A model generated the notes under the pieces. The model was not told where the DNA came from. It did no database searches and saw only the letters and a program-made list of their open reading frames with translations. Positions 2,641 through 56,698 of a DNA stretch of 64,000 bases are shown here, one piece after another. The position numbers and the translations under genes were made by a program. The stretch is taken from NCBI GenBank assembly GCA_963792365.1, contig CAWBVW010000001.1:912592-976591 (forward strand), given 5' to 3'. Each line of letters starts with the position of its first letter. Within the stretch, counting starts at the first letter, position 1. The stretch comes from an uncultured bacterium (GTDB taxonomy: Bacteria; Actinomycetota; Acidimicrobiia; Spongiisociales; ZC4RG35).

Positions 2641-2643
2641 GGC

Positions 2644-11000: not shown

Positions 11001-11130
11001 GCCCGAACGTCGAGACTCCTGACGGCTTCAGCGGCGCTTCGGACCGGAATCGCTCCTCCGGTCGCGGCACGGGTGGGTGCGGACTGCCTTCGTCGAATCA
11101 GCGCACGAAGACAGTCCGACCTACAACTTC

Positions 11131-15300: not shown

Positions 15301-16199
15301 TGCTCACGTCCATAGTGAAACGGGGCGACCTCGCCGCGTACCGCCTGGTCGAGCACATGCTGAACGGCGGGCCGACCGGCGTCGCTTTCCGGATGGGACT
15401 CGCCGAGGGTGGCATGGCCTATTCAACCCAGAGCGACGCCCTGACCTCTGACATCGTCGCCAGGCTGGACGACGCGATCGTCGACATCTCCGAGAGCCGG
15501 ATCACGGCGCCGCCGGCCCCGACCGGTCCGACGCTGACCGTCGACTACCAGGGGAACGAAATTGTGGCGCCGCGAGGCATAGACGGTCTGGACCTGCGAG
15601 TTGCGATCGAACCGGGTACCTACCAAGTCGATGCACTCGGTGTGCCAATCGCCATCAATCTCGGTCCGGAGTGGTGGGTCCTCGACAACATCGAGGGCGC
15701 CACCGGGTTCGGGCACCCGGAGTCCAGCGGCCACGGGGATCGTGAGGTGTGGTTCTTCCGCCCGACCCTTCTTGCGGACCCGACCCAGCCCGGGGCCGAC
15801 GTCCAAGACCAGGTGTGGTGGCCCTTGGAGGACATCGACGGCTGGCTCGAGGCACTGGTCGACGGCATCGTGACCGGAGACCCGCAGGAGGTGGAGGTCG
15901 GTGGTCGGCCCGCCACCTACTTCGAGGCCGAGGTGACCGACCCCGACGTCTGCGGCCCGTTCCAACATTGCGCGGGCTTCGTCATCAACACGTTCCTCGG
16001 CCCCAGCCAGGTCAGCGCCTGGTCATTCGAGCCGGGCGTACATCACAGAGTGTGGTGGATCGACGCCGGGGACCAACCGCCGCTCGTCATCATCGCCGCA
16101 GACTTCACCGGCGACCATGATTTCGGGAAGGCGGTCGACGAACTGCTCGATGGACTCGTCATCGGCGAGTTCGGCCCACACCCGGTCGACGCTGGGTAG
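12330..16199 (+). CDS. multidomain regulator: SARP-type winged-helix + BTAD, STAND P-loop NTPase, TM helix, BMP-family (PnrA/Med-like) binding domain, C-terminal extension
   Basis: N-term OmpR/PhoB-type DNA-binding + BTAD (AfsR/DnrI-like); FKGLRAFTSDDAPNFFGR...VMGASGSGKSSV Walker A of a STAND/nSTAND-like NTPase; hydrophobic helix MWALIAVMASALGVAALVLTGVF; BMP-family signature EGAFLAGVAAASKSETGIVGFIGG. Confidence 0.8.
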   Translation: MQPVVSDMPRMEFQALGPLAVYRDGDAVDLGSPKQKAVLALLLMHANQPVATDRIIEEIWGDDSDGKINALRVYVSRLRSALEPDRGRGGSSVLETSGNGYRLAVEPDHFDVARFERELARARPLRGEDPAGTAEVLASALSLWRGPAYADFAYDNFAQVERARLHEARVVAYEDRIESDLARGLSGELVSELEVLRDEHPLRERLVSHQALALYRSGRPADALRAIERFRRNLGGELGLDPSPGLLRLEEQILLHDPAIQPRHGAAGRDRPRTEVANPFKGLRAFTSDDAPNFFGRNALVAELLRVIGQGQRLVAVMGASGSGKSSVVNAGLLPALAKGALTGSDLWLVANMMPGAHPFAELEVALLRTIIDPPDSLDEQLRDGDAGFIRAALRILPDNDSHLLLVIDQFEELFTLVDDAVRRRFLSNLVAAVDDPHERVTVVITLRADFYDRPLQHPEFGARLGAGVVNVTPMTAEELEEAALEPARQVGVGFEPALLGQLISDVGSQPSALPLFQYTMTELFDRRGGDTLLASSYRAMGGVEGALQRRATDLYEQLDPAEQEAARQLFLRLVTVSEHDKRTRRRVAAREIVSLVDDTVTMYAVLKKFGDHRLLSFDADPLTGAPTVEVAHESLLTAWPTLAGWIDDSRDDLRRHVSLTVALREWQLADHDPNYLMTGARLSEYEAWSRTSQVSLNCAERAYLDAGAAKRAEERHIEEKQRRRETRSRRRMWALIAVMASALGVAALVLTGVFASETPEVMFFANRLDDQWFANVGSGLDRAERELDMELVDVTWAVDPVAEFRQLAASGAQFIVVSDDVFIEVDPSVLADHPDVQFGIIEGTASADNVTSVEFANEEGAFLAGVAAASKSETGIVGFIGGRKEPEVEAFRAGFEAGVQSVDPRTEVLAVYVDQFNEINGFGRPDLGEARARALYQRGADVLFAAAGTSGHGMFSAAVAESEALGRDLWAIGVDNDQWFEVEPEQQQHVLTSIVKRGDLAAYRLVEHMLNGGPTGVAFRMGLAEGGMAYSTQSDALTSDIVARLDDAIVDISESRITAPPAPTGPTLTVDYQGNEIVAPRGIDGLDLRVAIEPGTYQVDALGVPIAINLGPEWWVLDNIEGATGFGHPESSGHGDREVWFFRPTLLADPTQPGADVQDQVWWPLEDIDGWLEALVDGIVTGDPQEVEVGGRPATYFEAEVTDPDVCGPFQHCAGFVINTFLGPSQVSAWSFEPGVHHRVWWIDAGDQPPLVIIAADFTGDHDFGKAVDELLDGLVIGEFGPHPVDAG

Positions 16200-17105: not shown

Positions 17106-17519
17106 GTGGCTGACCGCTCTGCAACATGACGAGCCCCCCGTGCGTCGGCGAGTTCACGGCCCGAGCGGATCCCGCCCAGGGCGGGGCGGAGGGGCTGGCG
17201 TCCATCAGGGTCAAACGAGCGGAGTGGAGACGTAACGCTTCGTCGACATCGAGCATCAGATCCGAAGGACAGTCCCGATCCCGTGCAACACACGTTCTGC
17301 GGATACGGACCGAACCTGCCCTGCCTGAGCTTTCGGGCCACGCTCTAGGTCGGACTCTCTAGCGCGGATGAGCACCTGGAACGGATAGACGCGATCGATA
17401 CTGGTGGTAATCGGGACGACGTCACTGCGCCACGTTCTGCTTGGCAGTTGTCGTGTTGGCCGGGCCGGCTCGTGCCGGATCGACAGCCACGCCCGAATCT
17501 CGCCACGCAGAACCAGCGG

Positions 17520-18010
17520 CGCGTCAGCCTGGCGCCGCAGTACATCGACGTCCCCACCCGAGCCGAACTCCTGGCAGAGATCACCGGCCAACAACGAAAT
17601 CGCATCTGTCTCGCACGAGGAGTCCAGGACGCGGTCTACGGGGCACCAACCGACCGTCATCCCGGACAGGAATCGGCTTCCCAACACGGATGAGTCGGTC
17701 GCCAACGCTCATCCAGTGCACATTCTGCAACACGAGAGAACCGCGCTCTCGCGAGGACGTCATTCCGAGGTGGGTCGGAAGACTCCTCGGTGGCGACGCG
17801 CCCTTCTACGAAGACCGCTCAACGACTGCCGGCGGCGTGTTGCACCCGATCGTCCAGTACCGACCACACCACTCGAAAACGCTGTCAGTCATGAAGCTGC
17901 GGAACGTGTGTGATGAGTGCAATACCGGGTGGATGCACGATCTCGAAGAGCGTGCTCGGCCCGTCCTGGCCCCGATTCTCACTAGGAGCGATGCGGTGCT
18001 GCACAGCGGT
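17520..18010 (+). pseudogene. truncated duplicate of the fic 3' end plus the 5' half of its downstream partner gene
   Basis: About 490 bp, roughly 90% identical to 9555-10010; encodes LAEITGQQRNRICLARGVQDAVYGAP... and MSRSPTLIQCTFCNTREPRSREDVIPRWVGRLLGG... (ORF 17441..18265), then diverges. Confidence 0.8.
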
Positions 18011-22106: not shown

Positions 22107-23050
22107 TTGCGGGCGCCCAGCGCTGCGGCTTGCCCGGAACCGATCCACGCCGACCTGCTCGAGCCCCGATGGCCTTCGCCGGTGGACGTGACCGCATGTC
22201 TGCTGGACGGTGACCCTTCCATCCGATGGCAGGTCCTTGCCGACCTCGAGGGTGCGACGCCGGCTGCCGTGGCGTACGAGCGGACCCGGGTCGAACACGA
22301 AGGATGGGGCGCTCGACTCCTCTCACTTCAGGACCCGAACGGGCTGTAGGCGGCGGCGCTTGTTTCGCCGGCGACTTCCCGGGTGAGGAGGCAGGCCAGC
22401 CTTGGACAGCCACCATGCACACACTGCAGACGCTTCAGATCCTGGGACTGGATCCGGCGTCAGAATCTGCTCGCCGTGCCGTCGAGTTGGTGGCCGAGAA
22501 CGGGCGGTGGGAACACGATGGCCAGCGTTGTTTCGACGGCGACGTGGAACCGTGCATCAACGGCCGGACGATCTAGACGGGGTCGGATTTTGGTGTCGAC
22601 GTGGCACAGATCGTGGAACGGATCCTCACGGAGCGCCTGGCCGAGGGTGGGTGGAACTGCGAGGCCGAGAACGGGTCGGTGGTGTCGTCGATCGACACCA
22701 CCATCAACGTGCTCGATGGCCTGGCTGAGTTCGAGCGGGCAACCGGTGGTTCGCTCGAGGTGGTCGAAGCGCGGCGCAGTGGCGAGGAGTATCTGCTGGA
22801 ACGACGGCTGTTCCGCCGCAAGACCACGGGTGAGGTGGCCGACCCGACATTCCTCGACATCGCGTTCCCCTACTACTGGCGGTACGACGTGCTGCGGGCG
22901 CTCGACTACTTTCGGCGCACCGGGGCGCAGCGCGACTCGCGGATGGAAGAGGCTGTCGAGCTGGTTCGACCGAAACGCGGGCCCGACGGACGGTGGCTCC
23001 GAGACCGGATACATCCCGGCAGAGCCTTCTTCGACATCGAGGGACCGAAT
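22107..23050 (+). pseudogene. frameshifted paralog of the 50398..51333 gene (prenyltransferase/terpene-cyclase-repeat-like protein)
   Basis: Three consecutive ORFs (22107..22349, 22226..22576, 22601..23050 part) together align, at about 75-85% aa identity, along the 311-aa product of 50398..51333; two frame changes near 22340 and 22580; C-terminus diverges. Confidence 0.75.
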
Positions 23051-27328: not shown

Positions 27329-30010
27329 TCAGAGAGCGTCAACCCCGCTGTCGGGGAACCAGTCCATCACCTCGGGCTGAACCACGGCAACCTGCTGCCA
27401 ACCGCCCCGCTTCCGAATGGCCAGATCGGTACGAACGCGATGACGTTTGCGCCTCGAGATCACGTAGACCTTCTGATCGGTCGCGACCCGTACCATCTTC
27501 CCCTCCACCGAGGCAGGGGTGGTACTCGACGTGAGCCTGTAGTTCGCGAACGAATTCACTGTGCTCACGAGCTCCCACCCGCCCAGCACTTCGACCACCA
27601 CCTCGCTCGGGACCGGCCGGAGGACGTGATCGGCGTCGACCCACCACACGGTCATGGAGTCTTTCTCTCGCAGCATCTTGCCGGCGATCGTGACCTGCTC
27701 TCCACTTTCGGGGTGCTTAGTGATGATATCGGCAGTTGCGCTCCCGCCAATGCCCGACAGGTAGAAGAATCGCTTCATCTCCTCGCGATCCTCCGGGTCG
27801 GGTGGCTGCGTTCTCACGAGGTGACGCTTGCCGCCCCGGACCCACCACGATCGTTGATCCGGGCTCACACCGAAGATCGTCTTTCCTTCGATCGAGGGCG
27901 GCGTCGGGCTCGGAGGGAAAGCGCTGGAACGCCTCTCCCGCACAGGTCCGATGGTCAGGAACGGCCTGGATTCCGCCGAGATCTCATAGCTGAGCCCGCT
28001 GTGGATCCACGCATCGGGAGCGGAGTTCGCGTCCTTTCGCACCAGAAAGCCCTCCCACGCCACGATCGTTGCCGCTGGCGCGATGTCGAAGCTCAGGTCA
28101 GCACCGACATCGTCGTCGTAGTCGAAGCCTGACGGAAAGTCATCGAGAAACCCGTCGATCTCGGTACGGAGGTCGTCATAGACGAGCGGATCCTGGAAGA
28201 AGACAGGGCTCAACAGATGTGTCAGGTCTTCGACTTCGAGCAGAACCGGAACCGGCTCGGACTCCGAGCCCACCGATCCCCGCGAGCTGACGTCGAGCCC
28301 GCTGCCGCTCTTCGACGAGTCGCTCGACTCCTGATCGGTGCTCCCGCTGACGGACGCCGAGCCACCGCCCTCGGGTGTGTGGAAACCGACATCCAGCGAC
28401 TGTTCCTGGCTCGTTCCGTGTGTCATCGACTCCGACACCGACTCCTCGGTTTCGTGTCGCTGCTCCCACGCCTTTGAGCCAAAGCTGATGGCGTGGGCGT
28501 AGTGTGTGCCGAAGCGCCCGAAGAACTCCATGATCCGCTCGGGCCTCGGGTCTAGGGCAAGCGACGCCACGGCCGACCGAAACGCCGGCGCGAGCTGTAC
28601 GGTGGCGAGGTCGACGACGATGTTGTGGGACAGGTTCATGGTCTCGGTGATCGTCGACACGGTCTTCCCGGACGATGCCGAGCTCAACTCGCCGTGCGCC
28701 TTGCTGTTGTTCTTGTACGCCACCTTCGCCCCGAACGCATCCCCTTCGGCGGAGATGCCCAGCGAGGTGGCCCAGGTCTGACGTGACTCCTCGTCCGAAA
28801 ACGCCGAGGTGGTCCTCCCCTTGTTGGTGCCTGAGACGTCACCGGCGAATTGCCATCCGTTCGGCACGACGGTGGCCTTTCCGTTCGTTGCGACGTGGAA
28901 GTCCCGGCTACCCGGAGGAGGCGAACGGAACACCTCCTGTCCAAGTGCGCCACTCGCCTCCTGCAGATTGAAGGGGGCGAGGCGCGAGATGTCGATTCCG
29001 CGGAAAGCCCACGCCAGGTAGTCCACGCGTTCGTTGAGGCTGAACACGTTGTCCCACGTCGGACCATCTTGTGCCGCAGGCGCCGGTCGGGGCGCGGCGG
29101 TGTATACGCTGCCGTCCTCGAACACGACACGAAGCTCCGCTCCGAGGTGGACCTCGACAGACCCGTATGAGTCGACCGGTTCGCCAGAACCCGGGTCGGC
29201 GCGGTGTGCCTCGAAAGCGTGAGACGACACCGTGCCATCGAGGGTCGAGACGACCAACGTGTCGTCCCACTGGTCGATCCGGCGCACGTCCACCCGCCGG
29301 TGATTCGGGTTCGGGCGCTTCGACTCCGGTGTCGGATCTCCCACGTGATCGATCCGGCCCGCGTTTTGATCCGTCTCCGAAGGCGCCTTCGGCACCCTAT
29401 CCTCGTCGAGTCGTGGCGGTCGTCCGGCGTCGACCGTGGGGACGATCCGCAGGCCGCTGGCCGAGGTTATGGCGGTCGGTCCCCGGCCATCGACCATGAA
29501 CCGCACACCGATTCCCCGGATCGCCAAGCGGTCGTAGTGGCCGAACAGCCCGCACGCACGCGGATTGAGCGGTCCGATGTCTTCTCCGCGTCGGTCGAGC
29601 ACCTTGGCGGGGATGAGTTCGTACCAGTCGCCCATTGGGACGCCGCCTGTCAGTTCCAGGCGGCCGTCCTGGGTGGCAATCCCGATCGAGTGGATCAGTC
29701 CGGACTGGTACCCGTAGAGCCCGTTGACCACGTCGTCCTCACCCAACGCCACGACTTCGTCGGGGTCAACCGAATTCGGATCGATCCCACCCACGACCGG
29801 CGAGACGAAGAGCTCGCCTGCGGCAGTCCGCCACGTCACCTGAAATGCCCTGACAACCGTGAGTGTCTGCCCGACTTCGTTACTGGGAATCGTGCCGTGC
29901 CAAACCCTGAACTGACGCACCTGTGAATCCTCGCCCCAGTTCAAGCTGAAGTGACGTCCGGTCGATTGGCCGTGGAGGGGTGATCGGAACACGTACCTCC
30001 CAACGCTCAT
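27329..30010 (-). CDS. jacalin-like lectin + MACPF (perforin-like) domain protein with two C-terminal repeats
   Basis: N-terminal beta-prism/jacalin-like glycine pattern; central FFGRFGTHYAHAISFGS matches the MACPF signature [YF]G[TS]H[FY]x6G[GS]; C-terminal duplicated about 45-aa module (EGK..DQ..GxKRHxVRT). Confidence 0.65.
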   Translation of the reverse strand: MSVGRYVFRSPLHGQSTGRHFSLNWGEDSQVRQFRVWHGTIPSNEVGQTLTVVRAFQVTWRTAAGELFVSPVVGGIDPNSVDPDEVVALGEDDVVNGLYGYQSGLIHSIGIATQDGRLELTGGVPMGDWYELIPAKVLDRRGEDIGPLNPRACGLFGHYDRLAIRGIGVRFMVDGRGPTAITSASGLRIVPTVDAGRPPRLDEDRVPKAPSETDQNAGRIDHVGDPTPESKRPNPNHRRVDVRRIDQWDDTLVVSTLDGTVSSHAFEAHRADPGSGEPVDSYGSVEVHLGAELRVVFEDGSVYTAAPRPAPAAQDGPTWDNVFSLNERVDYLAWAFRGIDISRLAPFNLQEASGALGQEVFRSPPPGSRDFHVATNGKATVVPNGWQFAGDVSGTNKGRTTSAFSDEESRQTWATSLGISAEGDAFGAKVAYKNNSKAHGELSSASSGKTVSTITETMNLSHNIVVDLATVQLAPAFRSAVASLALDPRPERIMEFFGRFGTHYAHAISFGSKAWEQRHETEESVSESMTHGTSQEQSLDVGFHTPEGGGSASVSGSTDQESSDSSKSGSGLDVSSRGSVGSESEPVPVLLEVEDLTHLLSPVFFQDPLVYDDLRTEIDGFLDDFPSGFDYDDDVGADLSFDIAPAATIVAWEGFLVRKDANSAPDAWIHSGLSYEISAESRPFLTIGPVRERRSSAFPPSPTPPSIEGKTIFGVSPDQRSWWVRGGKRHLVRTQPPDPEDREEMKRFFYLSGIGGSATADIITKHPESGEQVTIAGKMLREKDSMTVWWVDADHVLRPVPSEVVVEVLGGWELVSTVNSFANYRLTSSTTPASVEGKMVRVATDQKVYVISRRKRHRVRTDLAIRKRGGWQQVAVVQPEVMDWFPDSGVDAL

Positions 30011-47216: not shown

Positions 47217-48206
47217 TCACGGGCGTGGTGGTGTTTCCCAGTCCTGACCCCACCAGCTCCGCCGCCCTCGGGGCTTGCCGAAGCTGGCCGGCCACGGTTC
47301 GCCCGCCAGTTCACCGGCCTCATCGCGGCCCGCCAGCTCGAGGAGTGGCGCGAGGTCGAAAGCGACGTCGTCGATCGGCTCCATCAGGTCACCCACAGCC
47401 TCGTACCGCTGCGCAAAGGAGTCCATCGGGAAGTCGGAGAGCTGAGCGTCTGGAACCTCGTCCCAGCGCAGCGGCGCCGAGACCCATCCGGTTGGACGTA
47501 CCGAGTAGGCGCTTGCAACCGTCCGATCCCTGCTGTTCTGGTTGTAGTCGATGAACACTCCGTGCCGGTTCTCCTTCCACCATTCGGTGGTGACCAGATC
47601 GGGCCGGCGACGTGCCACCTCCCGCCCGAACGCCAGCGCCGCACGCCGTACGTCGAGGAACGAGTATCGCGGCTCGATCCGGACGTAGATGTGTATGCCC
47701 TTGGATCCTGAGGTCTTGGGGTACCCCGTCAGATCGTGATCATGGAGCACCTCGTCGACGAGCAGAGCTGTCGCCTGGACGTCGGACCACGTTGCCTCTG
47801 GTGTTGGGTCGAGGTCGATGCGGAGTTCGTCGGGAGACTCCACGTGCTCGACCCTGGTGGGCCAGGGGTTCAGATCCACGCAGTTGAGCTGTGCCATCCA
47901 GATCACGTCGTACGGCGTGCGCGGCACGAAATATCCAGCGGTGCGCCCGGAGGGAAACTCCACAAAGTGTCGTTCCGACGCAGTCTTCGGTGCCCGCTTC
48001 TGAAAAAACGGCGTCTCCCCCACGCCTTTCGGCCAGCGCTTCAACATCGTCGGCCGGCCGAACACGCCTGCGAGCGCACCGTCGACACAGGTCAGGAAGT
48101 GCTCCACCACGTCCAGCTTCGTCCACCCCTGCTCGGGGAACATCACCTTGCCCGGATGGGTGATCGTGATCTCTTCGCCGGCGACCTCTACGGTGACCTC
48201 GTCCAT
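47217..48206 (-). CDS. stand-alone NHEJ LigD polymerase/primase domain protein (PolDom)
   Basis: 329 aa; ITHPGKVMFPEQGWTKLDV.. N-terminus and catalytic SGSKGIHIY region typical of LigD_Pol/archaeo-eukaryotic primase-like domains. Confidence 0.85.
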   Translation of the reverse strand: MDEVTVEVAGEEITITHPGKVMFPEQGWTKLDVVEHFLTCVDGALAGVFGRPTMLKRWPKGVGETPFFQKRAPKTASERHFVEFPSGRTAGYFVPRTPYDVIWMAQLNCVDLNPWPTRVEHVESPDELRIDLDPTPEATWSDVQATALLVDEVLHDHDLTGYPKTSGSKGIHIYVRIEPRYSFLDVRRAALAFGREVARRRPDLVTTEWWKENRHGVFIDYNQNSRDRTVASAYSVRPTGWVSAPLRWDEVPDAQLSDFPMDSFAQRYEAVGDLMEPIDDVAFDLAPLLELAGRDEAGELAGEPWPASFGKPRGRRSWWGQDWETPPRP

Positions 48207-48228
48207 GTTCCGATCTAGCGATCAGGAC

Positions 48229-50088
48229 TTAGGGCAGCTCGATTCGGATCATACTGATGGTCGTGGATTCCTCATCGCCATCGTCGAACTTGATGTGGAT
48301 CGATTCGCCCTCGCGTCGATCCACCTGACCTGGGTAGTAACTGTCGAGACCCCCGTAGCGGGCGGACACGCGAGTTCCGACGCCGATCTCAATGGGAGCC
48401 AGCTCCTCTTGGCTCACCAGCGACTCGTCGCCGTCGTCGAACCTGACGTCGTAGTCATCGCCGTCCATCCCGACGATGGTGCCCGGGTAGTAGAAGGAAT
48501 CGTCCCACAGGGCGAAGACCCGCTGCCCGATCCCCCAATCGGCGATCGCACGAGGTGCGGGTGATCGGGCCGGGATGCCGTGTCGCTCCCTGATGAGCGC
48601 CTGGAGTGACTGCAGCAGTGCTGCGGCAGGTTCCGCCTTCAAAGAGTTGTATGACAGGTCATCACCCAACGCAACCTCGTGGGCGCCGGCCTGCTCCACG
48701 CGCAAAGTTGCGAACGTTTCGTAATCCACCTCGTGAGATCCGGTCGATACCGACAGCGAAGCGTTCTTGAACCACATCGAACGAACGCCGAACGCCAACC
48801 CTACCTTCGCCGACCCGAATGCTGTCTCGTCGATCAATCCGAGGATGGGTTCGTCACGGGGAACTCCATAGCGCTCGTAGGCGCTGTCCGTCTTGCGGTC
48901 GGGAATGTCAGGAGCAACGAACAGCGCGTCGGGGAGTTCCGAGAAGCCCAACAGCAAGGCCGTCAGGTCGGCGATCCACGATTCCTCGGTCCCACGAGCA
49001 GCTTCTGCAGCGATCGCCGCTTGCTCGGCTTGGTTGGCCGCGGCCACCTCCTGGGTGCGCCGCGCCGATGCATCTTCCTCAGCCTGGAGTGCCGCGGCCG
49101 CCTGTTGGGCTCGCAGCGTCTCGGCTTCCTGTTCGGCCCGCTGGGCCGCCTCTCTCCGCTCGGCCTCGTGTTCCTTCGCTCTCTCCTGAGCACGGATCGC
49201 TTCCGCCTCTTGCTCCTGCTGCGTCTGCGTGGCAGCAGCCGCATCCCGAGCCGCCTTCTCCGACTCCAGGCGAGCCGCAACCCGCTCCACGAGACCGACG
49301 ACGTCGTCGTCCTTCAGACCGAGCTTCGCCTTACGCTTCTTCAGCTCCTCCTGCGTCTTCTGATCGAAGGGCAGTCCAACATCGTTGATCGCAAACTCGA
49401 GCTCGGCTTCGTACGCCCTGATCTTCTCGAGCTCGGCATCGTGCCGTCTCATCTCGTTGTCTTCGATCTCTTTGGCGACCTTCTCTGAGAGCCCGAGGCG
49501 CGTCCGTTCCTCTTCGAGGCTTCGCCGCTCATAGGGACTGATCACGTCGTCATCGGACAATGCTTCGGCAACGCGCATGCGATAGTCGGCCTCGTCGGCG
49601 CGCCGCTGCTCGTGTTCACGCTCGATTTCCTCGACGACTTCTTCCAATTCCTTGGCGACGGCGCGTATGGCAGCATCTTCATTCGGCCAGTAGTTGTCTT
49701 CGGCTCCGATGTTGGCGACCCACCGCTCGAACCGAGGGATTGCGTGGATGTTCTCGATCCCGAACAGCTTCTTCCATGTCGTTTCGCGCAACAACACGGG
49801 GATGATTCGAGGTGGAAACTCCTCCTCCTGCACGCGCTTCAGAGCGGCTGGGAGTTCCTGTGTCGTGACAAAATCGGATGTGAGGAAGTCACGGCTGATC
49901 AGCAGCAGGATGATATCCGCAGATGCGAGGGCTTCCTCGATCTCGCTCTGCCACGCATCGCCAGGCTTGATCTCACGATCGGCCCAAACGGTGATGCCGA
50001 GGAGTAGGAGCTCGGCTGTGATCTTGCGCTGCCACTCATAGTCCACGTGCGAGTAAGACAGAAAGATCCTGAGCGATTCGTGCGCCAT
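48229..50088 (-). CDS. TIR domain protein with long coiled-coil and C-terminal tandem Tudor/Agenet-like repeats
   Basis: TIR_2 signature RIFLSYSHVDYEWQRKITAELLLLGITVWADREIKPGDAWQSEIEEALASADIILLLISRDFLTSDFVTTQEL; about 230-aa E/R/A-rich coiled coil; two repeats GxRVxA.....YYPGxI........IKFDDGDE. Confidence 0.8.
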   Translation of the reverse strand: MAHESLRIFLSYSHVDYEWQRKITAELLLLGITVWADREIKPGDAWQSEIEEALASADIILLLISRDFLTSDFVTTQELPAALKRVQEEEFPPRIIPVLLRETTWKKLFGIENIHAIPRFERWVANIGAEDNYWPNEDAAIRAVAKELEEVVEEIEREHEQRRADEADYRMRVAEALSDDDVISPYERRSLEEERTRLGLSEKVAKEIEDNEMRRHDAELEKIRAYEAELEFAINDVGLPFDQKTQEELKKRKAKLGLKDDDVVGLVERVAARLESEKAARDAAAATQTQQEQEAEAIRAQERAKEHEAERREAAQRAEQEAETLRAQQAAAALQAEEDASARRTQEVAAANQAEQAAIAAEAARGTEESWIADLTALLLGFSELPDALFVAPDIPDRKTDSAYERYGVPRDEPILGLIDETAFGSAKVGLAFGVRSMWFKNASLSVSTGSHEVDYETFATLRVEQAGAHEVALGDDLSYNSLKAEPAAALLQSLQALIRERHGIPARSPAPRAIADWGIGQRVFALWDDSFYYPGTIVGMDGDDYDVRFDDGDESLVSQEELAPIEIGVGTRVSARYGGLDSYYPGQVDRREGESIHIKFDDGDEESTTISMIRIELP

Positions 50089-50397
50089 TCTGAGCCTCTG
50101 ATGGGTTGCCTGCGGAGCGCGCGTTTCAGCACGAGCCTTGTCGGCGACTCTACAGCTCGACACTCATCCGCGCCCCCGAGCCTCACGTATGACTTTCGAT
50201 CGAGTGGGTCCAATGCTCGAGGAGACGCCTGGGCTCGAGCGGCCTCTGCGCTAGATCCGCGGTCGGTCTGTCTCTGGCATTCACATCTATTCGGTGAAGT
50301 CGTGCCGGGAAATGGACGGGACCAGGCGGAGGTCTTCGCAACGGTCTGCATGAGAAGGTGGTGCCATCCAAGTTGGCGGGGTCGAACGCGGCCGGCG

Positions 50398-51333
50398 TCA
50401 GCTGGAGCGGTCCCACCAATCGAGCACCCGGAGGGCACGAAGTGTGTTCCAGCGGCTCGGCGCACCCCGGTCTTCAACGTCGAAGAGGACGCGACCCGGA
50501 TGAATGCGATCGAGCAGCCATCGGCCGTCGAACTGCCGTTTCGATCGGACGAGCTCCACGGCGTCAGCCATTCGAGGGTCCGGGTCGGCGTCCGAACGCC
50601 GGAAGTAGTCGAGGGCACGCAAGACGTCGTAGTGCCAGTAGAACGGGAACCCGAACTCGAGGTAGGCCGGGTCGACGACGCCACCTGTGCTCTGGCGCCG
50701 AAAGAGATCTCGGGAGAGGAGATACTCCTCGCCACTGCGTCGCGCCACCCGGACCTCATTGGATTCGCCGGTCGCCCGCTCGAACTCGAGCAGCCCATCG
50801 AGCACGTTGATCGTCGTGTCGATCGAGGATCGAACGGATCCGTTTTCGGCCTCACAGTTCCAACCGCCATCGTCGAGCCGCTCATCCAGGATCCGTTCGA
50901 CGATCGGCGCCACATCCACGCCGAAGTAGGCGCCGGTCTCGATCGTCCTGCCGTTGATGCACGGCTCGACCTCGCCATCGAAGTATCGCTGCCCGTCGTG
51001 TTCCCAGCGCCCGTTCTTGGCAACGAGGGCGATCGCCCTGCGAGCGGACTCCGAAGCCGGATCCAGCCCGAGAATCTGCAGAGTCTGCAGCGTGTGCATC
51101 GTGGCCGTCCACGGCTGACCGGGCTCACCGCCCCGGTACGCCCTTGGGAAGCAGGCGCCGCCGTCCCACAGGCCGTCGGGATCCTCCAGGCCCAAGAGGC
51201 GAGCACCCCATCCCTCGTACTCGACCCGTGCTCGTTCGGCGGCCACTTCAGCCGGAGGTGAATCCTGAAGGTCGGCCATCACCTGCCAGCGGACGGCAGG
51301 ATCTCCGTCGAGAAGCCAGTCGATCACGTTCAT
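50398..51333 (-). CDS. prenyltransferase/squalene-cyclase-repeat (alpha/alpha toroid)-like protein; intact paralog of the 22.1-kb pseudogene
   Basis: 311 aa; DGGW-type repeat (LDDGGWNCEAENGSVRSSIDTTINVLDGL, LWDGGACF) reminiscent of the QxxDGGW terpenoid cyclase/PFTB repeat; family assignment tentative. Confidence 0.55.
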   Translation of the reverse strand: MNVIDWLLDGDPAVRWQVMADLQDSPPAEVAAERARVEYEGWGARLLGLEDPDGLWDGGACFPRAYRGGEPGQPWTATMHTLQTLQILGLDPASESARRAIALVAKNGRWEHDGQRYFDGEVEPCINGRTIETGAYFGVDVAPIVERILDERLDDGGWNCEAENGSVRSSIDTTINVLDGLLEFERATGESNEVRVARRSGEEYLLSRDLFRRQSTGGVVDPAYLEFGFPFYWHYDVLRALDYFRRSDADPDPRMADAVELVRSKRQFDGRWLLDRIHPGRVLFDVEDRGAPSRWNTLRALRVLDWWDRSS

Positions 51334-51480: not shown

Positions 51481-51987
51481 CTACGTCAGGAGATCATCGG
51501 CTCGACGTCGGATATCCTCGAACACCGAGATGGCTTGCTCGGATTTTCCCTGAGCGCTGGTGTCCGCCCAGTCGGAGGTTGCCGACTGCACCCAGCGGCC
51601 GTACTCGACGAGCATGGTGCCGTACTCGAGGAGGAACTCCCCGGCCAGGGCGATCAGGTGATATCGCTGCGGGAACTCGGTGCCCGACTCCAGATACACG
51701 GTCGCACGCCGTCGGACCACCTCGAGCACTGTGCGCCCGTCTGCTTCGACCCCGGCAGCCATGGCTCTGAGATCTTCCATCGACCCGTATTCGGCGAAGA
51801 ACAGCCGCCCGAGCATCTCGGATTCGATCTTGGTCGATGACGGCTCCCGATCCGCCAGCCAATCTCGAAGTGCGTGGAGGCCTTTGTCCGTGATGGTGTA
51901 CCGGACGCGTCGCCGACCGACAATCTCGTGGCGTATCTGGGACGGCAGCCATGATCCCTGGAGAGACCCTTTCCCCGCACACCACAA
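51481..51987 (-). CDS. PadR-like transcriptional regulator, apparently N-terminally truncated or frameshifted
   Basis: GRRRVRYTITDKGLHALRDWLA resembles the PadR wing plus C-terminal Vir_act_alpha_C-like domain; no room for a full winged-helix N-terminus (TTG start). Confidence 0.4.
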   Translation of the reverse strand: MWCAGKGSLQGSWLPSQIRHEIVGRRRVRYTITDKGLHALRDWLADREPSSTKIESEMLGRLFFAEYGSMEDLRAMAAGVEADGRTVLEVVRRRATVYLESGTEFPQRYHLIALAGEFLLEYGTMLVEYGRWVQSATSDWADTSAQGKSEQAISVFEDIRRRADDLLT

Positions 51988-52382
51988 GGGCGGCCGCTCG
52001 CAACAACGAAGCCCTGGTCCGAGCGATGATCGATGCCTTCCGGGCCGGCGACCTCGCCGCTGTCGCTGCGAGCTTCGCGCCGGACGGGATCTGGGACCTT
52101 CCAGGGCGAGGCCTCCTCGCCGGCAAGTACGAGGGACCGGAGGAGATCACCAGTTTCCTCGCCCGCGCCCACCAGCTGTCGGGCGGTACCTTGCGACTCC
52201 AGGTGCTCGACGTGCTCTCGAGCCCGAAGGGAGCAGCGCACCTGCAACGGGTCACCGCCGAGAAGCCTGATGCCACGCTCGACTGTGTCGAGACGCTCGT
52301 CCACGAGATCGAGGACGGTCACATAACCCGCACATATCACCGGCCAGACGCTCACGCGCTCGACGACTTCTTTGGCGCCTGA
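51951..52382 (+). CDS. SnoaL/NTF2-like fold protein
   Basis: 143 aa; ..NEALVRAMIDAFRAGDLAAVAASFAPDGIWDLPG... typical of SnoaL-like polyketide cyclase/ketosteroid isomerase-like domains. Confidence 0.75.
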   Translation: MIPGETLSPHTTRAAARNNEALVRAMIDAFRAGDLAAVAASFAPDGIWDLPGRGLLAGKYEGPEEITSFLARAHQLSGGTLRLQVLDVLSSPKGAAHLQRVTAEKPDATLDCVETLVHEIEDGHITRTYHRPDAHALDDFFGA

Positions 52383-53378: not shown

Positions 53379-55784
53379 GTGCTCCCCGTTAGGGTCGCGG
53401 CGATGAGTCGCGACTCCGCCGACGTTGCCTGCACGCTGGTGAACCGGCGCGCGCAGATCGCCGAGCTCTGGCATGCCATCCAGGCAGCCGACCGCGTCGC
53501 CATCGACACCGAAGTGCCGATCGACGGACCCCGCAAGGGCGAACTACGTGTGATGTCGATCGCCACCCGGTCGGAATCCGGCGAGCAAGCATTTGTCGTC
53601 GACGCCCGAGACCTGGACCCCACGCTGCTCGGCCCGATGCTCGACGGAGTGACCGCCGACGCCTGGAACGCCAACTTCGACGCCCGAGTGATCGACGCCG
53701 CCGTGTGGCACTCCTCGGACACCACGCCCGGCATCACGTGGTGGGACGCCCAGCTGGGCGACGCCCTCATCCACCAGGGACGGAGCGGGTTCAGCTGGTA
53801 TCACGGACTGGCCTGGGCGACCTCGCACTATCTGGGCATCGACGCCGAGGGCAAAGGCACGGTCCAGCTGTCATACACCGCCACCGACGATCTGACCCCC
53901 GAACAGATCTCCTATGCGGCGGCCGACGCCCTCCACACCCTCTGGGTCGCCGATGAGATCCGCTCCGAAATCGAACGCTCTCGACTCACCGAGATCTGCC
54001 AGATCGAACAGGACGCACGCCCGTTTCTCGACCAGATGGAGCGCACGGGTCTGCCGTTCGACTGGGAGGGTTGGCGCACCGAGCTGGAGCGCATCGAAAC
54101 CCGGCATCGGTCGGTGATCGACCGTCTGGCCATGCTCACCGGTGGTGGACAGGCGACGCTGTTCGACCAGACCGTGGAGCCCACGTGGAACCCCGCGTCG
54201 GACCCGCAGGTACGCGAGGTGCTGAACCGGTGGGCGGAACCGGAGGTCCGGGCATGGACCCTGAGCCGTGACGGGGCTGCTCGGCTCCTCACCGGTAGCG
54301 ACTCGCTGAGGGCGGGCGTGCTGAAGGAGATCGGCGGCGAGCTGTGCCAAACGCTGCTCGAGTTCCGCAACCAGGCGAAGATCCTCACCACCTACGGCGA
54401 CTCGATCGCCGAGCACCTCCATCCCGACGGTCGCCTCAGGCCCCAGTACCTGCAGGTGGTCGGTACCAACACCGGACGGCTGGCCAGCCGAAACCCCAAT
54501 GCCCAGAACTTCACGCCGCTGATGAAGCCATACCTGCGACCCAACCACCCGGACCGAGTGTTCGTTCACGCCGACCTCAGCCAGGCCGAACTTCGCTACC
54601 TGGCACAGGTGGCCGAAGACGAGCCCCTCCGACTGGCCTTCGCCCGGGGGGACGACGTCCATGTGACGACTGCCGCCTCCATGTTCGGGTTCGACCCCGA
54701 CGAGCTCGCCCGCACCGATCCCACGCGGTTCAAGCGGCTGAGGCAGATCGCCAAGGCGCTCAATTTCGGAATCGCCTACGGATCGGGACCGGCGGCGCTC
54801 GGCCGGTCGCTCACGAGCGAGGGAACTCCGACGACCACCGACGAGGCCGCGGAACTGCTCACCCAGTACCGCCGTACCTACCCGGGGACCGCCACCTGGG
54901 CGGAGAACCGAATTGCCGAGATCCGTCAGATCAGCGAGGAGACTGCGGCCATCGACTGGCCGATGTCTATGCGTCTCGCCCGTGGCTTCCGCGACGTCCA
55001 CGCCATCCGGAGGGAGCTGCGAGAGACCCTGAACCGCTGGCCGACCGCAGAGGAGATCGTCGAGCAGCATCCAGACCGACTCGGGTCGGATGTCGATGCT
55101 CTCCGAGATGACGTCGAGTGGCTGCTCCGCTACTCCGCCCCGGTCGCGCTCGTCCCGGGCGGCAATCCATTTCGGTTCTCCAGCCGGACGCTCGCCGGCC
55201 GGCGCCAGCAGTTCGAGCTGCACCTCGATCGGTTGTTCCTCGGAACCGTGATCGCAGCGTTCCGATCCGACGAACCCGGGTTCGCCGAGGTTCGTCGGCG
55301 GTTCGTGCTCGACCACGGGGTGGAACTCCCCCATGGCGAGCCACGAGAGTCCGAGGTCGAACGGCTTTTCGAAGAGCGTCGCCTCCGCCGGTTCTTCGTC
55401 GAGACCATCTCCGCCGAGCTCGGCGAACAGACTGCTCACGCGTGTCTGGCTCGCTCGGCCCGTGAGCGGGTGTCGACGATGGTCAACGCCTGGCGCAATG
55501 CACCCATCCAGGGTGGCGTCGCAGACATCATGCTGGTCGCCTACGCCGACCTGCACCGGCGTCTCGCCGCCGTCCCGAGCGCCCGGCCGGTGCAGACCGT
55601 CCACGACTCGGTGGTCATCGAGTGCGACCGCACCGACGCCGACCGCGTCGTCGCGGAAGTCACCGCAGCGCTCGAAGCGGCCTCCCGCCGCTTCTGTCCC
55701 GACGTGGCACCGAAGGCAGACGTCGACATCCGCACCTCGCTTGCCGAGGCAGACGTACTGGCTCCAGAGGAGAGTCGAGCGTGA
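53379..55784 (+). CDS. family-A (PolA-like) DNA polymerase with 3'-5' exonuclease domain, no 5' nuclease, and a large insertion between motifs B and C
   Basis: Exo I VAIDTEV; PolA motif A VHADLSQAELRYLAQ, motif B RQIAKALNFGIAYGSG, NAPIQGGVADIM, motif C VQTVHDSVVIEC; about 190 aa between motif B and the PIQG helix instead of the usual 50. Confidence 0.75.
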   Translation: MLPVRVAAMSRDSADVACTLVNRRAQIAELWHAIQAADRVAIDTEVPIDGPRKGELRVMSIATRSESGEQAFVVDARDLDPTLLGPMLDGVTADAWNANFDARVIDAAVWHSSDTTPGITWWDAQLGDALIHQGRSGFSWYHGLAWATSHYLGIDAEGKGTVQLSYTATDDLTPEQISYAAADALHTLWVADEIRSEIERSRLTEICQIEQDARPFLDQMERTGLPFDWEGWRTELERIETRHRSVIDRLAMLTGGGQATLFDQTVEPTWNPASDPQVREVLNRWAEPEVRAWTLSRDGAARLLTGSDSLRAGVLKEIGGELCQTLLEFRNQAKILTTYGDSIAEHLHPDGRLRPQYLQVVGTNTGRLASRNPNAQNFTPLMKPYLRPNHPDRVFVHADLSQAELRYLAQVAEDEPLRLAFARGDDVHVTTAASMFGFDPDELARTDPTRFKRLRQIAKALNFGIAYGSGPAALGRSLTSEGTPTTTDEAAELLTQYRRTYPGTATWAENRIAEIRQISEETAAIDWPMSMRLARGFRDVHAIRRELRETLNRWPTAEEIVEQHPDRLGSDVDALRDDVEWLLRYSAPVALVPGGNPFRFSSRTLAGRRQQFELHLDRLFLGTVIAAFRSDEPGFAEVRRRFVLDHGVELPHGEPRESEVERLFEERRLRRFFVETISAELGEQTAHACLARSARERVSTMVNAWRNAPIQGGVADIMLVAYADLHRRLAAVPSARPVQTVHDSVVIECDRTDADRVVAEVTAALEAASRRFCPDVAPKADVDIRTSLAEADVLAPEESRA

Positions 55785-56066
55785 GGCGAGTTGCCGTTCC
55801 GTATCCACGCTGTGGCTGACCGGGCCTGACGACCCGCATCTATCAGCGGTGGCCGATCGAGTTCGCGTTCACGCCAGGCCGCCCCACGGGGACGAGTGCG
55901 GGCCTTTCTCCGACGAAGTGTGGTCGTGCTGGGGCTACGAGTTCGGATCGACGAGAAACCCCCGGAACAGGGTCGAACGCTGTGGGTCTCACCGAAACTC
56001 GCACGCCGCGAGTGGGAAGGGCCGTACCGTTCCCTAGGAGTCGAGGATCGGATATGCTGGCATATC

Positions 56067-56288
56067 ATGAAACGGACCACCGTGAAGCTGCCCGATGAGG
56101 TCGATGCCCGGCTCCGCCACGAGGCGGAACGGCGGGGAATCACGGTTTCTGAGCTGACCCGCGAAGCGATCGAGCAGCATCTCGGCGGTCGACAGCGCCA
56201 CCTTCGCGCAGCAGGCGCCGGAAACAGCGGACGCGACGACATCTCCGAACGTATCGAAGAGATCCTCGCAGCCGAGGTGGCCCGATAA
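56067..56288 (+). CDS. ribbon-helix-helix (CopG-family) antitoxin
   Basis: MKRTTVKLPDEVDARLRHEAERRGITVSELTREAIEQHL is a canonical RHH; internal start of ORF 55896..56288. Confidence 0.75.
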   Translation: MKRTTVKLPDEVDARLRHEAERRGITVSELTREAIEQHLGGRQRHLRAAGAGNSGRDDISERIEEILAAEVAR

Positions 56289-56698
56289 CCCTCCTCGTCG
56301 ACGCGGGACCCCTCTACGCCTACGTCGATGCCGACGATCGGCATCATGCCGAGTCGCTCGACCTGCTGCTGCGATACCCGGGGCCCCTGGTCGTTCCGGC
56401 TCTCGTGATCACCGAAGTGGCGTACCTCATCGGGAGTCGGCTCGGCCCCGACGCCGAGGTCCGTTTCCTCGGGGACCTCGCGGCTGGTGAATTCTCCATC
56501 GAGAGCGTGATGGCGGGCGACTGGCTTCGAATCGCCGAACTCGTGGCTCGATATCGCGACCTCTCCCTGGGGACAGTCGATGGCTCGGTCGTCGCAACCG
56601 CGGAGCGACTCCGCATCACCACGATCGCCACGCTCGATCGCCGGCACTTTTCAGTCGTGCGCCCCACCCACACCGACGCGTTCGAGCTCTTGCCCTGA
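56282..56698 (+). CDS. PIN-domain toxin (VapC-like); start codon not identifiable
   Basis: ..ITLLVDAGPLYAYVDADDRHH...PALVITEVAYLIG...LSLGTVDGSVVATAERL.IATLDRRHF contains the PIN acidic residues; reading frame open from the RHH stop but no ATG/GTG/TTG before the conserved N-terminal D. Confidence 0.65.
   Translation, partial: PITLLVDAGPLYAYVDADDRHHAESLDLLLRYPGPLVVPALVITEVAYLIGSRLGPDAEVRFLGDLAAGEFSIESVMAGDWLRIAELVARYRDLSLGTVDGSVVATAERLRITTIATLDRRHFSVVRPTHTDAFELLP

What the first reader, a model, noticed from the sequence alone, without database searches (positions are those of the whole stretch)
47217..51333. Minus-strand trio: prenyltransferase-like toroid protein, TIR/coiled-coil/tandem-Tudor protein, stand-alone LigD polymerase domain
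A bona fide TIR domain (RIFLSYSHVDYEW...DIILLLISRDFLTSDF) is fused to a roughly 230-residue coiled coil and two Tudor/Agenet-like beta-barrel repeats (Y.PG.I.......IKFDDGDE). Upstream is a 311-aa protein with DGGW-type alpha/alpha-toroid repeats. Downstream is an NHEJ PolDom. Bacterial TIR proteins are NAD-consuming defence effectors such as Thoeris ThsB, and Tudor-like modules could read a modified protein or nucleic-acid cue. The toroid-protein partner also exists as a decayed second copy at 22.1 kb, which suggests this unit has moved or duplicated before. This is a candidate undescribed TIR-based system.
Basis: partly seen in the sequence, partly recalled or inferred. Interest (0 to 1): 0.75.

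Follow-up and report, generated by a model that had tools for sequence, protein, structure and literature searches.

The report
Stand-alone TIR protein with Tudor sensor
The three genes are real, but they are not a conserved three-gene system: the centre gene is a rare single-protein fusion of a probably NAD-cleaving TIR domain to PH-like and tandem Tudor modules, and its two neighbours are an ordinary, very widespread enzyme-like protein and a DNA-repair polymerase.

Summary
All three minus-strand ORFs exist as described. Its Ser, Asp and Glu align with the AbTir residues needed for NADase activity.

The three-gene system reading fails.
- The trio occurs only in this organism and one sister MAG with 96% identical TIR.
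- The next relative (73% identical TIR-Tudor) has neither the toroid gene nor the polymerase beside it.
- About 40 more distant TIR+linker relatives share no neighbour at all.
- The toroid protein belongs to a huge family (over 8000 homologs, the 120 listed 71-100% identical). Three other members have no TIR or polymerase nearby.
- The 22-kb copy is a pseudogene of the toroid gene alone.
- The polymerase is closest to mycobacterial Prim-PolC, a gap-repair enzyme, not to the NHEJ PolDom.

Relatives keep the TIR+linker and swap the C-terminus for FGE-sulfatase, WD40, TPR, a periplasmic-binding domain, PH-like repeats or a zinc ribbon. The best reading is therefore a single-gene sensor-effector TIR NADase with an unusual Tudor/PH sensor. 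Function and trigger are inferred, not shown. Interest is moderate to low.

The parts
48229..50088 (-). TIR-linker-coiled coil-PH-like-tandem Tudor protein, 619 aa (the ORF extends to a GTG at 50163, but the ATG at 50088 is the likely start)
   Evidence: ORF list. GAGG 7 nt upstream of the ATG. The identical 619-aa protein P0001 is in the database. dN/dS is 0.12 against sister MAG L007.
49654..50076 (-). TIR domain (residues about 5-145); candidate catalytic Glu78 is at 49855..49857
   Evidence: Pfam TIR_2 7.8e-22. PADLOC ThsB1 6.9e-23. Alignment to AbTir puts E78 on E208, S11 on S140, D37 on D167 and F74 near W204 (PMC11374754). These residues are invariant in 8 relatives. dN/dS is 0.03.
49219..49653 (-). 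Conserved helical repeat 'linker' (residues about 146-290; motif Y..V.E.LSDD..IS..ER..LEE.R..LGLS), the family's second hallmark
   Evidence: Conserved in all 8 relatives. Detected by a local HMM in 40 of the 86 locus records examined, a few of them duplicates, in 1-4 copies. No Pfam match at E<=0.1. The same motif is visible by eye at the N-terminus of kinase protein P0184.
48937..49218 (-). Low-complexity E/A/Q/R-rich helical spacer (probable coiled coil or single helix), residues about 291-384
   Evidence: Read from the sequence. Variable in length and sequence among relatives, and absent from P0002 and P0003.
48574..48936 (-). PH-like domain (residues about 385-505), belonging to a repeat family with no Pfam model
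48232..48573 (-). Tandem Tudor (residues about 506-619)
   Evidence: Pfam Tudor_3 54.3 bits and BAHCC1-like Tudor 31.8 bits, both above cut-offs. PDB matches are PCL, KDM4B, PHF20, PHF1 and 53BP1 Tudors. 1645 representative proteins match the 245-aa PH-like+Tudor query, most through the Tudor part.
47217..48206 (-). Stand-alone AEP primase-polymerase of the Prim-PolC type, 329 aa; adjacent (22-bp gap) but not shown to belong to the TIR gene's function
   Evidence: PF21686 5.6e-73. Best PDB match is M. smegmatis Prim-PolC, 6sa0/5op0, 1.4e-74 over residues 6-314 (PMC7442782). NCBIfam ligD_pol scores 195.9, below its 214.7 cut-off. Adjacent to the TIR gene only in the window, L002 and L007.
50398..51333 (-). 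(alpha/alpha)6-toroid protein of unknown function, 311 aa; a neighbour, not a partner
22174..23041 (+). Pseudogene copy of the toroid gene only
   Evidence: tblastn gives 76% identity over residues 52-287, plus residues 1-74 in another frame. Frameshift, in-frame stop and lost C-terminus. DNA similarity is 73.5% over 863 bp and confined to the ORF.
53379..55784 (+). PolA-like 3'-5' exonuclease/DNA polymerase, the only neighbour of the TIR-Tudor gene kept in both lineages
   Evidence: NCBIfam PRK14975-type match, below its cut-off. 73.8% identical homolog lies next to TIR-Tudor in L001, and 91.6% identical in L007.

Best explanation
The centre gene is a self-contained, single-gene sensor-effector protein. 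The N-terminal TIR domain is predicted to be an NAD+-cleaving enzyme. A conserved helical-repeat stalk plus a coiled coil probably mediates oligomerisation. The C-terminal PH-like domain and tandem Tudor are the input module, binding an unidentified ligand, possibly a lipid or membrane surface for the PH-like domain and a protein or methylated or cationic mark for the Tudors.

By analogy with other TIR enzymes, ligand binding would drive TIR-TIR assembly. That assembly would switch on NAD+ hydrolysis or production of an ADPR-derived signal, as in abortive-infection or conflict systems.

The gene belongs to a family, TIR + helical linker + swappable C-terminal binding module, that is common in filamentous cyanobacteria and present in Acidobacteriota and Acidimicrobiia. 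This is its rare Tudor-bearing variant.

The flanking toroid gene and Prim-PolC-type polymerase are unrelated neighbours: a very widespread enzyme-like protein and a repair polymerase.

Shown: domain content, conserved catalytic-type residues, family architecture, lack of conserved neighbours, purifying selection.
Inferred: NADase activity, oligomerisation-based activation, ligand identity, defence role.
For: Domains.

Catalytic-type residues: S11, D37 and E78 align to AbTir S140, D167 and E208 (PMC11374754) and are invariant in relatives.

Family architecture: 40 of the 86 locus records examined carry TIR+linker. Their C-termini are FGE-sulfatase, WD40, Peripla_BP_6 or TPR, PH-like x2 (P0005) or a zinc ribbon (P0007).

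No partner gene: no conserved neighbour cluster appears across 40 loci. The trio is found only in L002 and L007. L001 has TIR-Tudor without the toroid gene or polymerase.

Neighbours unrelated: the toroid family has over 8000 members in unrelated contexts. The toroid gene and polymerase have no PADLOC hits.

The gene is functional: dN/dS is 0.12 overall and 0.03 in the TIR domain.

Literature: TIR as an N-terminal effector fused to FGS, WD40 or TPR sensor domains in conflict systems of multicellular bacteria (PMC7159879, PMC10907252).
Against: - No activity data exist.
- The AbTir W204 position is Phe, and the motif has a one-residue insertion (FxxxxE rather than WxxxE), so the product or activity may differ.
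- The immediate neighbourhood is metabolic and repair genes, not a defence island.
- High conservation against the sister MAG is not typical of fast-evolving immune genes.
- The Tudor and PH ligands are unknown.
- The 22-bp TIR-polymerase spacing, with no terminator-like site in that gap, allows co-transcription.
- PolA-like adjacency is kept in two lineages.
Confidence: 0.55

Rival explanations
1. One reading: the toroid protein, the TIR-Tudor protein and the polymerase domain form one three-gene TIR-based defence system that moves as a unit.
For: All three genes are on the same strand and adjacent in the window, L002 and sister MAG L007. All three are under purifying selection. A second toroid copy exists in the window.
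Against: - The trio is seen in only one shallow lineage.
- L001, with a 73% identical TIR-Tudor, lacks both partners.
- Toroid homologs number over 8000 against about 10 for the TIR protein, and three other toroid contexts have no TIR or polymerase.
- A 310-bp gap separates the toroid and TIR genes.
- The duplicate covers only the toroid ORF.
- The three genes differ in dS against L007: 0.55, 0.15 and 0.29.
- Neither partner has a PADLOC hit.
Confidence: 0.04
2. The TIR-Tudor protein works with DNA-repair polymerases as a DNA-damage or repair-linked module. The partners would be the co-transcribed Prim-PolC-type enzyme and/or the divergently placed PolA-like polymerase. The 53BP1/Crb2-like tandem Tudor would recruit it to a damage-associated mark.
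For: The gap to the polymerase gene is 22 bp, with no terminator-like site in it, in the window and in L007. The PolA-like gene is the only neighbour kept in both lineages although both outer flanks differ. The best Pfam Tudor model is the Crb2 DNA-repair Tudor.
Against: - There are only two independent lineages, so the synteny may be plain vertical inheritance at about 74% aa identity.
- L001 lacks the Prim-PolC neighbour.
- More distant TIR+linker relatives have no polymerase nearby.
- The tandem Tudor module is widespread (most of the 1645 representative proteins that match the PH-like+Tudor query), and nothing in these searches ties it to repair (their gene neighbourhoods were not examined).
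- No Ku or ATP-dependent ligase was found among the 51 ORFs called in the window.
Confidence: 0.1
3. The TIR domain is a ThsB-like signal generator. It would make a cADPR-isomer or similar nucleotide that activates an unlinked effector encoded elsewhere in the genome. It would not itself be a killing NAD+ depleter.
For: The best PADLOC match is ThsB1, 6.9e-23. The catalytic-type residues are kept.
Against: - No ThsA-like gene (SIR2/SLOG or Macro) is adjacent.
- Neither flanking gene has a PADLOC hit.
- None of the 25 (of 28) PADLOC families listed for the window's 51 ORFs is ThsA.
- Only positions 4-158 of the 319-position ThsB1 profile are matched.
- W204, needed for 2'cADPR formation in AbTir (PMC11374754), is replaced by Phe.
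Confidence: 0.1
4. It is a housekeeping signalling or scaffold protein, for example membrane- or envelope-associated through the PH-like domain. The TIR domain would act mainly as an interaction or regulatory module, not in anti-phage conflict.
For: The gene is not in a defence island. It is highly conserved against the sister MAG, 96% aa with dN/dS 0.12. The same linker and PH-like modules occur with Ser/Thr kinases (P0184). Nothing was found on viral contigs.
Against: - The Ser, Asp and Glu needed for NADase activity in AbTir are invariant.
- The family shows the swappable-C-terminus pattern typical of conflict proteins.
- The distribution is very patchy.
- dS is lower than in the neighbours, which hints at recent exchange of this gene alone.
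Confidence: 0.2

Closest known systems
Single-chain bacterial TIR proteins fused to sensor or superstructure domains (FGS/CLec, WD40, TPR) in conflict systems of multicellular bacteria (Kaur et al. 2020, PMC7159879; Dore et al. 2024, PMC10907252)
   Same: The TIR_2 domain is N-terminal and the C-terminal binding module is variable. The direct relatives found here (30-40% identical over TIR+linker) carry FGE-sulfatase, WD40, TPR or periplasmic-binding domains. They come mostly from filamentous cyanobacteria, Acidobacteriota and Actinomycetota.
   Different: The C-terminus here is a PH-like domain plus a tandem Tudor, a combination seen only in the window (= P0001), its sister MAG L007 and the possibly truncated P0140; the PH-less TIR-Tudor form adds P0002, P0003 and P0197. 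There is no NTPase, vWA-MoxR or DGR context here. The shared helical-repeat linker has no Pfam model.
Thoeris ThsB
   Same: The TIR domain resembles ThsB most among PADLOC models (6.9e-23), and a catalytic Glu equivalent is present.
   Different: There is no adjacent ThsA. The protein is 619 aa with four extra modules. Only the first half of the ThsB1 profile is matched.
AbTir/TcpC-type bacterial TIR NADases
   Same: The TIR domain aligns with AbTir (7uwg, 8g83). The equivalents of S140, D167 and E208 are conserved. A coiled-coil region accompanies the TIR domain.
   Different: The PDB E-values are weak (about 3e-3). The W204 equivalent is Phe, with a one-residue insertion. The domain order differs, with TIR N-terminal here. 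The source is an environmental actinobacterium-like MAG, not a pathogen.
SARM1 (a works-like analogy only)
   Same: It is one polypeptide in which non-catalytic domains control an NAD+-cleaving TIR domain through oligomeric assembly.
   Different: There is no homology outside the TIR domain, and no ARM or SAM domains. Regulation here is entirely inferred.
Mycobacterial Prim-PolC (PolD1), for the downstream gene
   Same: It is the best solved relative, 1.4e-74 over residues 6-314, including the C-terminal extension region. Both are stand-alone AEP polymerases (PMC7442782, PMC5663958).
   Different: No LigC gene is adjacent. The position aligned with the N321 pin residue reads as Ser in the printed alignment.
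Eukaryotic Royal-family Tudors (PCL/PHF1, PHF20, KDM4, 53BP1/Crb2)
   Same: There are two consecutive roughly 55-residue barrels with the W...YYPG...FDDG pattern. The Pfam Tudor_3 and BAHCC1-like Tudor models score above their cut-offs.
   Different: The PDB E-values are weak (1.6e-4 and weaker). One aromatic cage position appears non-aromatic (by eye, not verified structurally). The context is bacterial and the ligand is unknown.

Membership tests
TIR domain (Pfam TIR_2) NADase-type | Match to the TIR_2 profile above the gathering score | tested here: met
   78.5 bits against a 28-bit cut-off, E 7.8e-22
TIR domain (Pfam TIR_2) NADase-type | Conserved catalytic glutamate of the alphaC (W)xxxE motif | tested here: met
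   E78 aligns to AbTir E208, and S11 and D37 align to S140 and D167 (PMC11374754). These residues are invariant in 8 relatives. The W position is Phe, with a one-residue insertion.
TIR domain (Pfam TIR_2) NADase-type | NAD+ hydrolase or cyclase activity | not testable with these tools
   Needs a biochemical assay.
Thoeris defence system | ThsB-like TIR protein | tested here: inconclusive
   PADLOC ThsB1 6.9e-23, but only profile positions 4-158 of 319 are matched.
Thoeris defence system | Adjacent ThsA effector (SIR2/SLOG or Macro/TM) | tested here: not met
   The flanking genes have no PADLOC hits. None of the 25 (of 28) PADLOC families listed for the 51 window ORFs is ThsA. The Pfam neighbourhood shows none.
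Multi-gene defence system (toroid + TIR + polymerase) | Conserved co-occurrence of the genes across independent genomes | tested here: not met
   Among the 89 loci then held, the trio occurs only in L002 (the same organism) and L007 (a sister MAG). It is absent from L001 and from three toroid contexts. No conserved neighbour appears in 40 TIR+linker loci.
LigD polymerase domain / NHEJ | LigD_Prim-Pol fold and catalytic motifs | tested here: met
   PF21686 246 bits. The DxD (RIDLDP) and SGSKGIH motifs are visible in the sequence.
LigD polymerase domain / NHEJ | Equivalog-level match to ligD_pol, and association with Ku or the LigD ligase | tested here: not met
   TIGR02778 scores 195.9, below its 214.7 cut-off. 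No Ku or ATP-dependent ligase was found among the 51 called ORFs. Gaps between the called ORFs were not examined.
Prim-PolC | Closest similarity to Prim-PolC, including the C-terminal Loop 3 extension | tested here: met
   6sa0/5op0 score 1.4e-74 over residues 6-314, against 5e-32 for Mt PolDom 2iru.
Prim-PolC | Operon with LigC | tested here: not met
   No ligase gene lies within 10 kb on either side.
Royal-family tandem Tudor | Two Tudor barrels by profile match | tested here: met
   Tudor_3 scores 54.3 against 25.8, and BAHCC1-like Tudor 31.8 against 28. PDB matches are PCL, PHF1, PHF20, KDM4 and 53BP1.
Royal-family tandem Tudor | Complete aromatic cage for a methyl-lysine or methyl-arginine ligand | tested here: inconclusive
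   W528, Y534, F550 and D552 are invariant in 5 sequences and lie in the W...YYPG...FDDG pattern. Equivalence to cage residues was judged by eye from the alignments. No structure of this region was made.
PH-like fold | Seven-strand sandwich capped by a C-terminal helix | tested here: met
Prenyltransferase / class II terpene cyclase (alpha/alpha)6 toroid | (alpha/alpha)6 barrel fold | tested here: met
Prenyltransferase / class II terpene cyclase (alpha/alpha)6 toroid | Sequence-profile membership (Prenyltrans/SQHop_cyclase repeats) or catalytic motif | tested here: not met
   There is no Pfam or NCBIfam hit at E<=0.01 and no PDB sequence hit, even with a profile. The fold search does not separate epimerase, cyclase, GH and LanC-like families.

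The most novel reading that the evidence does not exclude
The tandem Tudor, with or without the PH-like domain, is a true reader module in a bacterium. It would recognise a methylated or otherwise modified protein, a nucleic-acid-associated mark or a phage component. That recognition would be coupled directly to NAD+ cleavage by the fused TIR domain. This would be a prokaryotic 'mark reader to TIR' immune or damage sensor, possibly acting with the neighbouring repair polymerases.
Probability: 0.1. Interest if true: 0.75.

Novelty: new variant of a known kind. Interest (0 to 1): 0.33.

Why it matters
If the model holds, this protein adds Tudor and PH-like domains to the known input modules that control bacterial TIR NADases. 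It would also be a rare bacterial case in which a Royal-family Tudor is wired to an enzymatic output, giving a handle for finding what bacterial Tudor domains bind.

The work also defines two unannotated modules that recur in many signalling and conflict proteins. One is the helical-repeat linker shared by about 40 TIR proteins. The other is a PH-like repeat found with kinases, TIR domains and zinc ribbons.

The practical result for the scan is negative. The proposed three-gene system should not be carried forward as a system.

Tried and rejected
- Three-gene system: rejected by neighbourhood analysis.
- 'The unit was duplicated': rejected, because only the toroid ORF is duplicated.
- Thoeris membership: rejected for lack of ThsA.
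- NHEJ assignment of the polymerase: replaced by Prim-PolC type.
- TerB-like or GUN4-like identity for the helical linker: my guess, unsupported, with no Pfam hit at E<=0.1.
- Sequence-level family for the toroid protein: none found in Pfam, NCBIfam, PADLOC or PDB, even with a profile.
- A word-index homolog search with the PH-like domain alone returned nothing, although the full protein is in the database. This is a tool limitation and cost one search.
- The metagenome-contig and viral-contig scans for more TIR-Tudor genes found only distant Tudor-only hits or nothing. Linkage could therefore not be tested beyond two lineages.
- No Rfam family matched in 44-56 kb. The promoter and terminator scans were no better than shuffles.
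- A PADLOC scan of neighbours of the 40 family loci was considered. It was not run because generic PADLOC models would make the result hard to interpret.

Full report
OBSERVATION

The three minus-strand ORFs are real. They are a 311-aa ORF at 50398..51333, a 644-aa ORF at 48229..50163, and a 329-aa ORF at 47217..48206. The true start of the middle ORF is almost certainly the ATG at 50088. A GAGG lies 7 nt upstream, and the database holds the identical 619-aa protein.

Pfam places TIR_2 (7.8e-22), Tudor_3 (1.3e-14) and a BAHCC1-like Tudor (1.4e-07) on the middle protein, all above their gathering scores. It places LigD_Prim-Pol (5.6e-73) on the downstream protein.

ANATOMY OF THE TIR PROTEIN

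Numbering follows the 619-aa protein.
- Residues about 5-145 are the TIR domain.
- Residues about 146-290 are a conserved helical repeat with the motif Y..V.E.LSDD..IS..ER..LEE.R..LGLS. It has no Pfam model.
- Residues about 291-384 are a low-complexity E/A/Q/R-rich helix. It varies among relatives and is missing from P0002 and P0003.
- Residues about 506-619 are the tandem Tudor. Its best solved relatives are the PCL, KDM4B, PHF20, PHF1 and 53BP1 Tudors.

In the phmmer alignment to AbTir, E78 falls on E208. E208 is the catalytic Glu of the WxxxE motif (PMC11374754). S11 and D37 fall on S140 and D167, which are also required for AbTir NADase activity. The W204 position is Phe, with a one-residue insertion. 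These residues are invariant in eight relatives.

IS THE TRIO A SYSTEM?

No, on six lines of evidence.

First, the TIR protein is very rare. In 5.8 billion clustered proteins, only about eight true relatives appeared. A scan of 185,579 species genomes found the full-length protein only in a sister MAG, L007, at 96% identity. A tblastn of the toroid and polymerase proteins against all the loci then held (89) found them next to a TIR relative only in L002 (the same organism) and L007.

Second, the next-closest relative is P0002 in L001/L008. It is 73% identical, has TIR-linker-Tudor and lacks the coiled coil and PH-like domain. It sits between a PNPOx gene and a convergent AMP-binding gene, with no toroid or polymerase.

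Third, more distant relatives have other neighbours. These are a second TIR_2 gene (L003) or a DZR zinc-ribbon gene (L004, L005). An all-against-all clustering of ORFs around 40 TIR+linker loci found no conserved partner.

Fourth, the toroid protein belongs to a very large and strongly conserved family. More than 8000 homologs were found, and the 120 listed are 71-100% identical. Three members examined on long contigs have no TIR or polymerase nearby.

Fifth, the second copy at 22 kb is a pseudogene with a frameshift, an in-frame stop and a lost C-terminus. DNA similarity between the two regions is 73.5% over 863 bp and confined to the toroid ORF. No TIR or polymerase remnant lies there.

Sixth, a 310-bp gap separates the toroid and TIR genes. 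Synonymous divergence from L007 differs threefold among the three genes, at 0.55, 0.15 and 0.29.

THE POLYMERASE

Its best solved relative is M. smegmatis Prim-PolC (6sa0/5op0), at 1.4e-74 over residues 6-314. The NHEJ PolDom of M. tuberculosis LigD scores 5e-32. Prim-PolC fills short gaps during excision repair and is operonic with LigC in mycobacteria (PMC7442782, PMC5663958).

The NCBIfam ligD_pol equivalog score is below its cut-off. No Ku or ATP-dependent ligase was found among the 51 ORFs I called in the window. The gene is therefore an ordinary stand-alone actinobacterial repair polymerase.

It lies 22 bp downstream of the TIR gene in the window and in L007, with no terminator-like site in that gap. 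Co-transcription is possible. L001 shows that the pairing is not required.

WHAT THE TIR PROTEIN BELONGS TO

A local HMM of the linker detects it in 40 of the 86 locus records examined (a few are duplicates), in one to four copies. Most come from Nostoc, Leptolyngbya and other filamentous cyanobacteria. A few come from Acidobacteriota, Aestuariivirga, Ilumatobacter and Acidimicrobiia.

Their C-termini differ. L009 has FGE-sulfatase, L010 has WD40, L022 has a periplasmic-binding domain and L018 has TPR. P0005 has two PH-like domains and P0007 has a zinc ribbon. This fixed TIR+stalk with a swappable binding module is the pattern described for TIR effectors in conflict systems of multicellular bacteria (PMC7159879, PMC10907252).

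The C-terminal 245 residues, searched against 1.84 billion representatives, gave 1645 hits. The tandem Tudor is common in small bacterial proteins and in giant multi-repeat proteins. The PH-like domain occurs as tandem repeats with Ser/Thr kinase (P0184), TIR (P0240) and zinc-ribbon (P0158) proteins.

The PH-like domain also matches weakly the N-terminus of BnzA of the Bunzi defence system, at 6.3e-06. That protein is described as carrying a lipid-interacting domain (bioRxiv 10.1101/2022.05.11.491447). I did not check that the matched BnzA residues are that domain.

MECHANISM (INFERRED)

I read the gene as a single-gene sensor-effector. The PH-like and Tudor modules would bind a trigger. The helical stalk and coiled coil would oligomerise. 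The assembled TIR domains would then cleave NAD+.

Support comes from the conserved catalytic-type residues, the family architecture, the absence of any conserved partner and purifying selection. dN/dS is 0.12 overall and 0.03 in the TIR domain.

Several points count against a defence role.
- The local context is metabolic and repair genes, not a defence island.
- The protein is highly conserved against the sister MAG.
- No relative was found on viral contigs.

The low dS of the TIR gene (0.146, against 0.29-0.55 for its neighbours) hints that this gene alone was recently exchanged between the two lineages. I did not pursue this.

A WEAK LEAD

The PolA-like polymerase at 53379..55784 is the only neighbour kept beside TIR-Tudor in both lineages. 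It is 73.8% identical in L001, while both outer flanks differ. With only two lineages this may be plain inheritance. It is the basis of the repair-linked rival, together with the Prim-PolC adjacency and the Crb2/53BP1-like Tudor.

NOVELTY AND SCORE

TIR proteins fused to varied sensor domains are a known kind. A TIR fused to a PH-like domain and a tandem Tudor appears undescribed. No paper in the library holds the four terms together, and only a few such proteins were found in all the collections searched. I rate it a new variant of a known kind, with moderate to low interest. The proposed three-gene system is not supported.

The organism is probably an Acidimicrobiia (Actinomycetota) MAG. This is an inference from the source names of related proteins and loci, not a test.

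Noticed in passing
window 1579..10541: A mobile-element or defence-like stretch lies at the left end of the window. It holds a phage-type integrase (1579..2640, minus strand). It also holds a second TIR protein of the CAP12/Pycsar type (3384..4010, plus strand, PF10137 1.7e-26), followed by an overlapping 128-aa ORF (4007..4393). Further genes are a SEC-C motif protein (4813..5298), a DUF433 protein (5316..5774) and a Fic protein (8494..9684). A PADLOC SoFic hit at 2e-113 from the pooled window scan probably belongs to this Fic protein, though that scan does not name the member matched.
   Followed up: partly
window 12330..16199 (+): A 1289-aa protein combines Trans_reg_C, BTAD, nSTAND1 NTPase (1.3e-114) and a C-terminal Bmp/PnrA-like substrate-binding domain. 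This is a STAND regulator or sensor with an unusual ligand-binding end.
   Followed up: no
window 27329..30010 (-): An 893-aa protein has a MACPF (perforin-like) domain at 7.8e-09, which is uncommon in Actinomycetota-like genomes.
   Followed up: no
window 50398..51333 (-) and homologs P0020-P0139: The toroid protein family has no Pfam, NCBIfam or PDB sequence match. It nevertheless has over 8000 homologs in metagenomes, and the 120 listed are 71-100% identical. About 100 columns are invariant, including three Cys (C61, C125, C160) and three His (H80, H112, H278). That pattern could indicate a metal-dependent enzyme of LanC-like or prenyltransferase-like type, which is my speculation.
   Followed up: partly
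window 48229..50088 compared with L007 8001..9860: The TIR gene's synonymous divergence from the sister MAG is dS 0.146. That is two to four times lower than for every neighbouring gene (0.29-0.55). This suggests recent recombination or transfer of this gene alone.
   Followed up: no
window 48574..48936 (-); P0158, P0172, P0177, P0184, P0194, P0213, P0235, P0240 and others: A roughly 115-120-residue PH-like repeat with the motif APDIP..KL.NA....VP..E.VLGL.D.TVFGSAKNGLLFG..GIY..N has no Pfam model. It occurs in 2-5 tandem copies in proteins with kinase, TIR or zinc-ribbon domains.
   Followed up: partly
window 55896..56698 (+): An RHH antitoxin plus PIN toxin pair lies just downstream of the PolA-like gene. 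No homolog of either was found in the sister MAG locus L007, and the same holds for the SnoaL gene (51951..52382) and the 168-aa ORF at 51481..51987. The region around the TIR gene therefore gains and loses small genes.
   Followed up: no
window 17256..17705 (-): A weak PemK/MazF-like toxin match at 5.2e-4, below the Pfam cut-off.
   Followed up: no
L003 8510..9679 (-) and 10001..11893 (+): In an Acidimicrobiia MAG, the TIR-linker-PH-PH relative P0005 is divergently paired with a second, 389-aa TIR_2 protein.
   Followed up: no
L004 11346..11819; L005 2036..3333: Two distant TIR+linker relatives are followed by a small DZR or zinc-ribbon protein. In L005 and L006 an M48 peptidase with a zinc ribbon follows as well. 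This could be a local two- or three-gene variant of the family.
   Followed up: no
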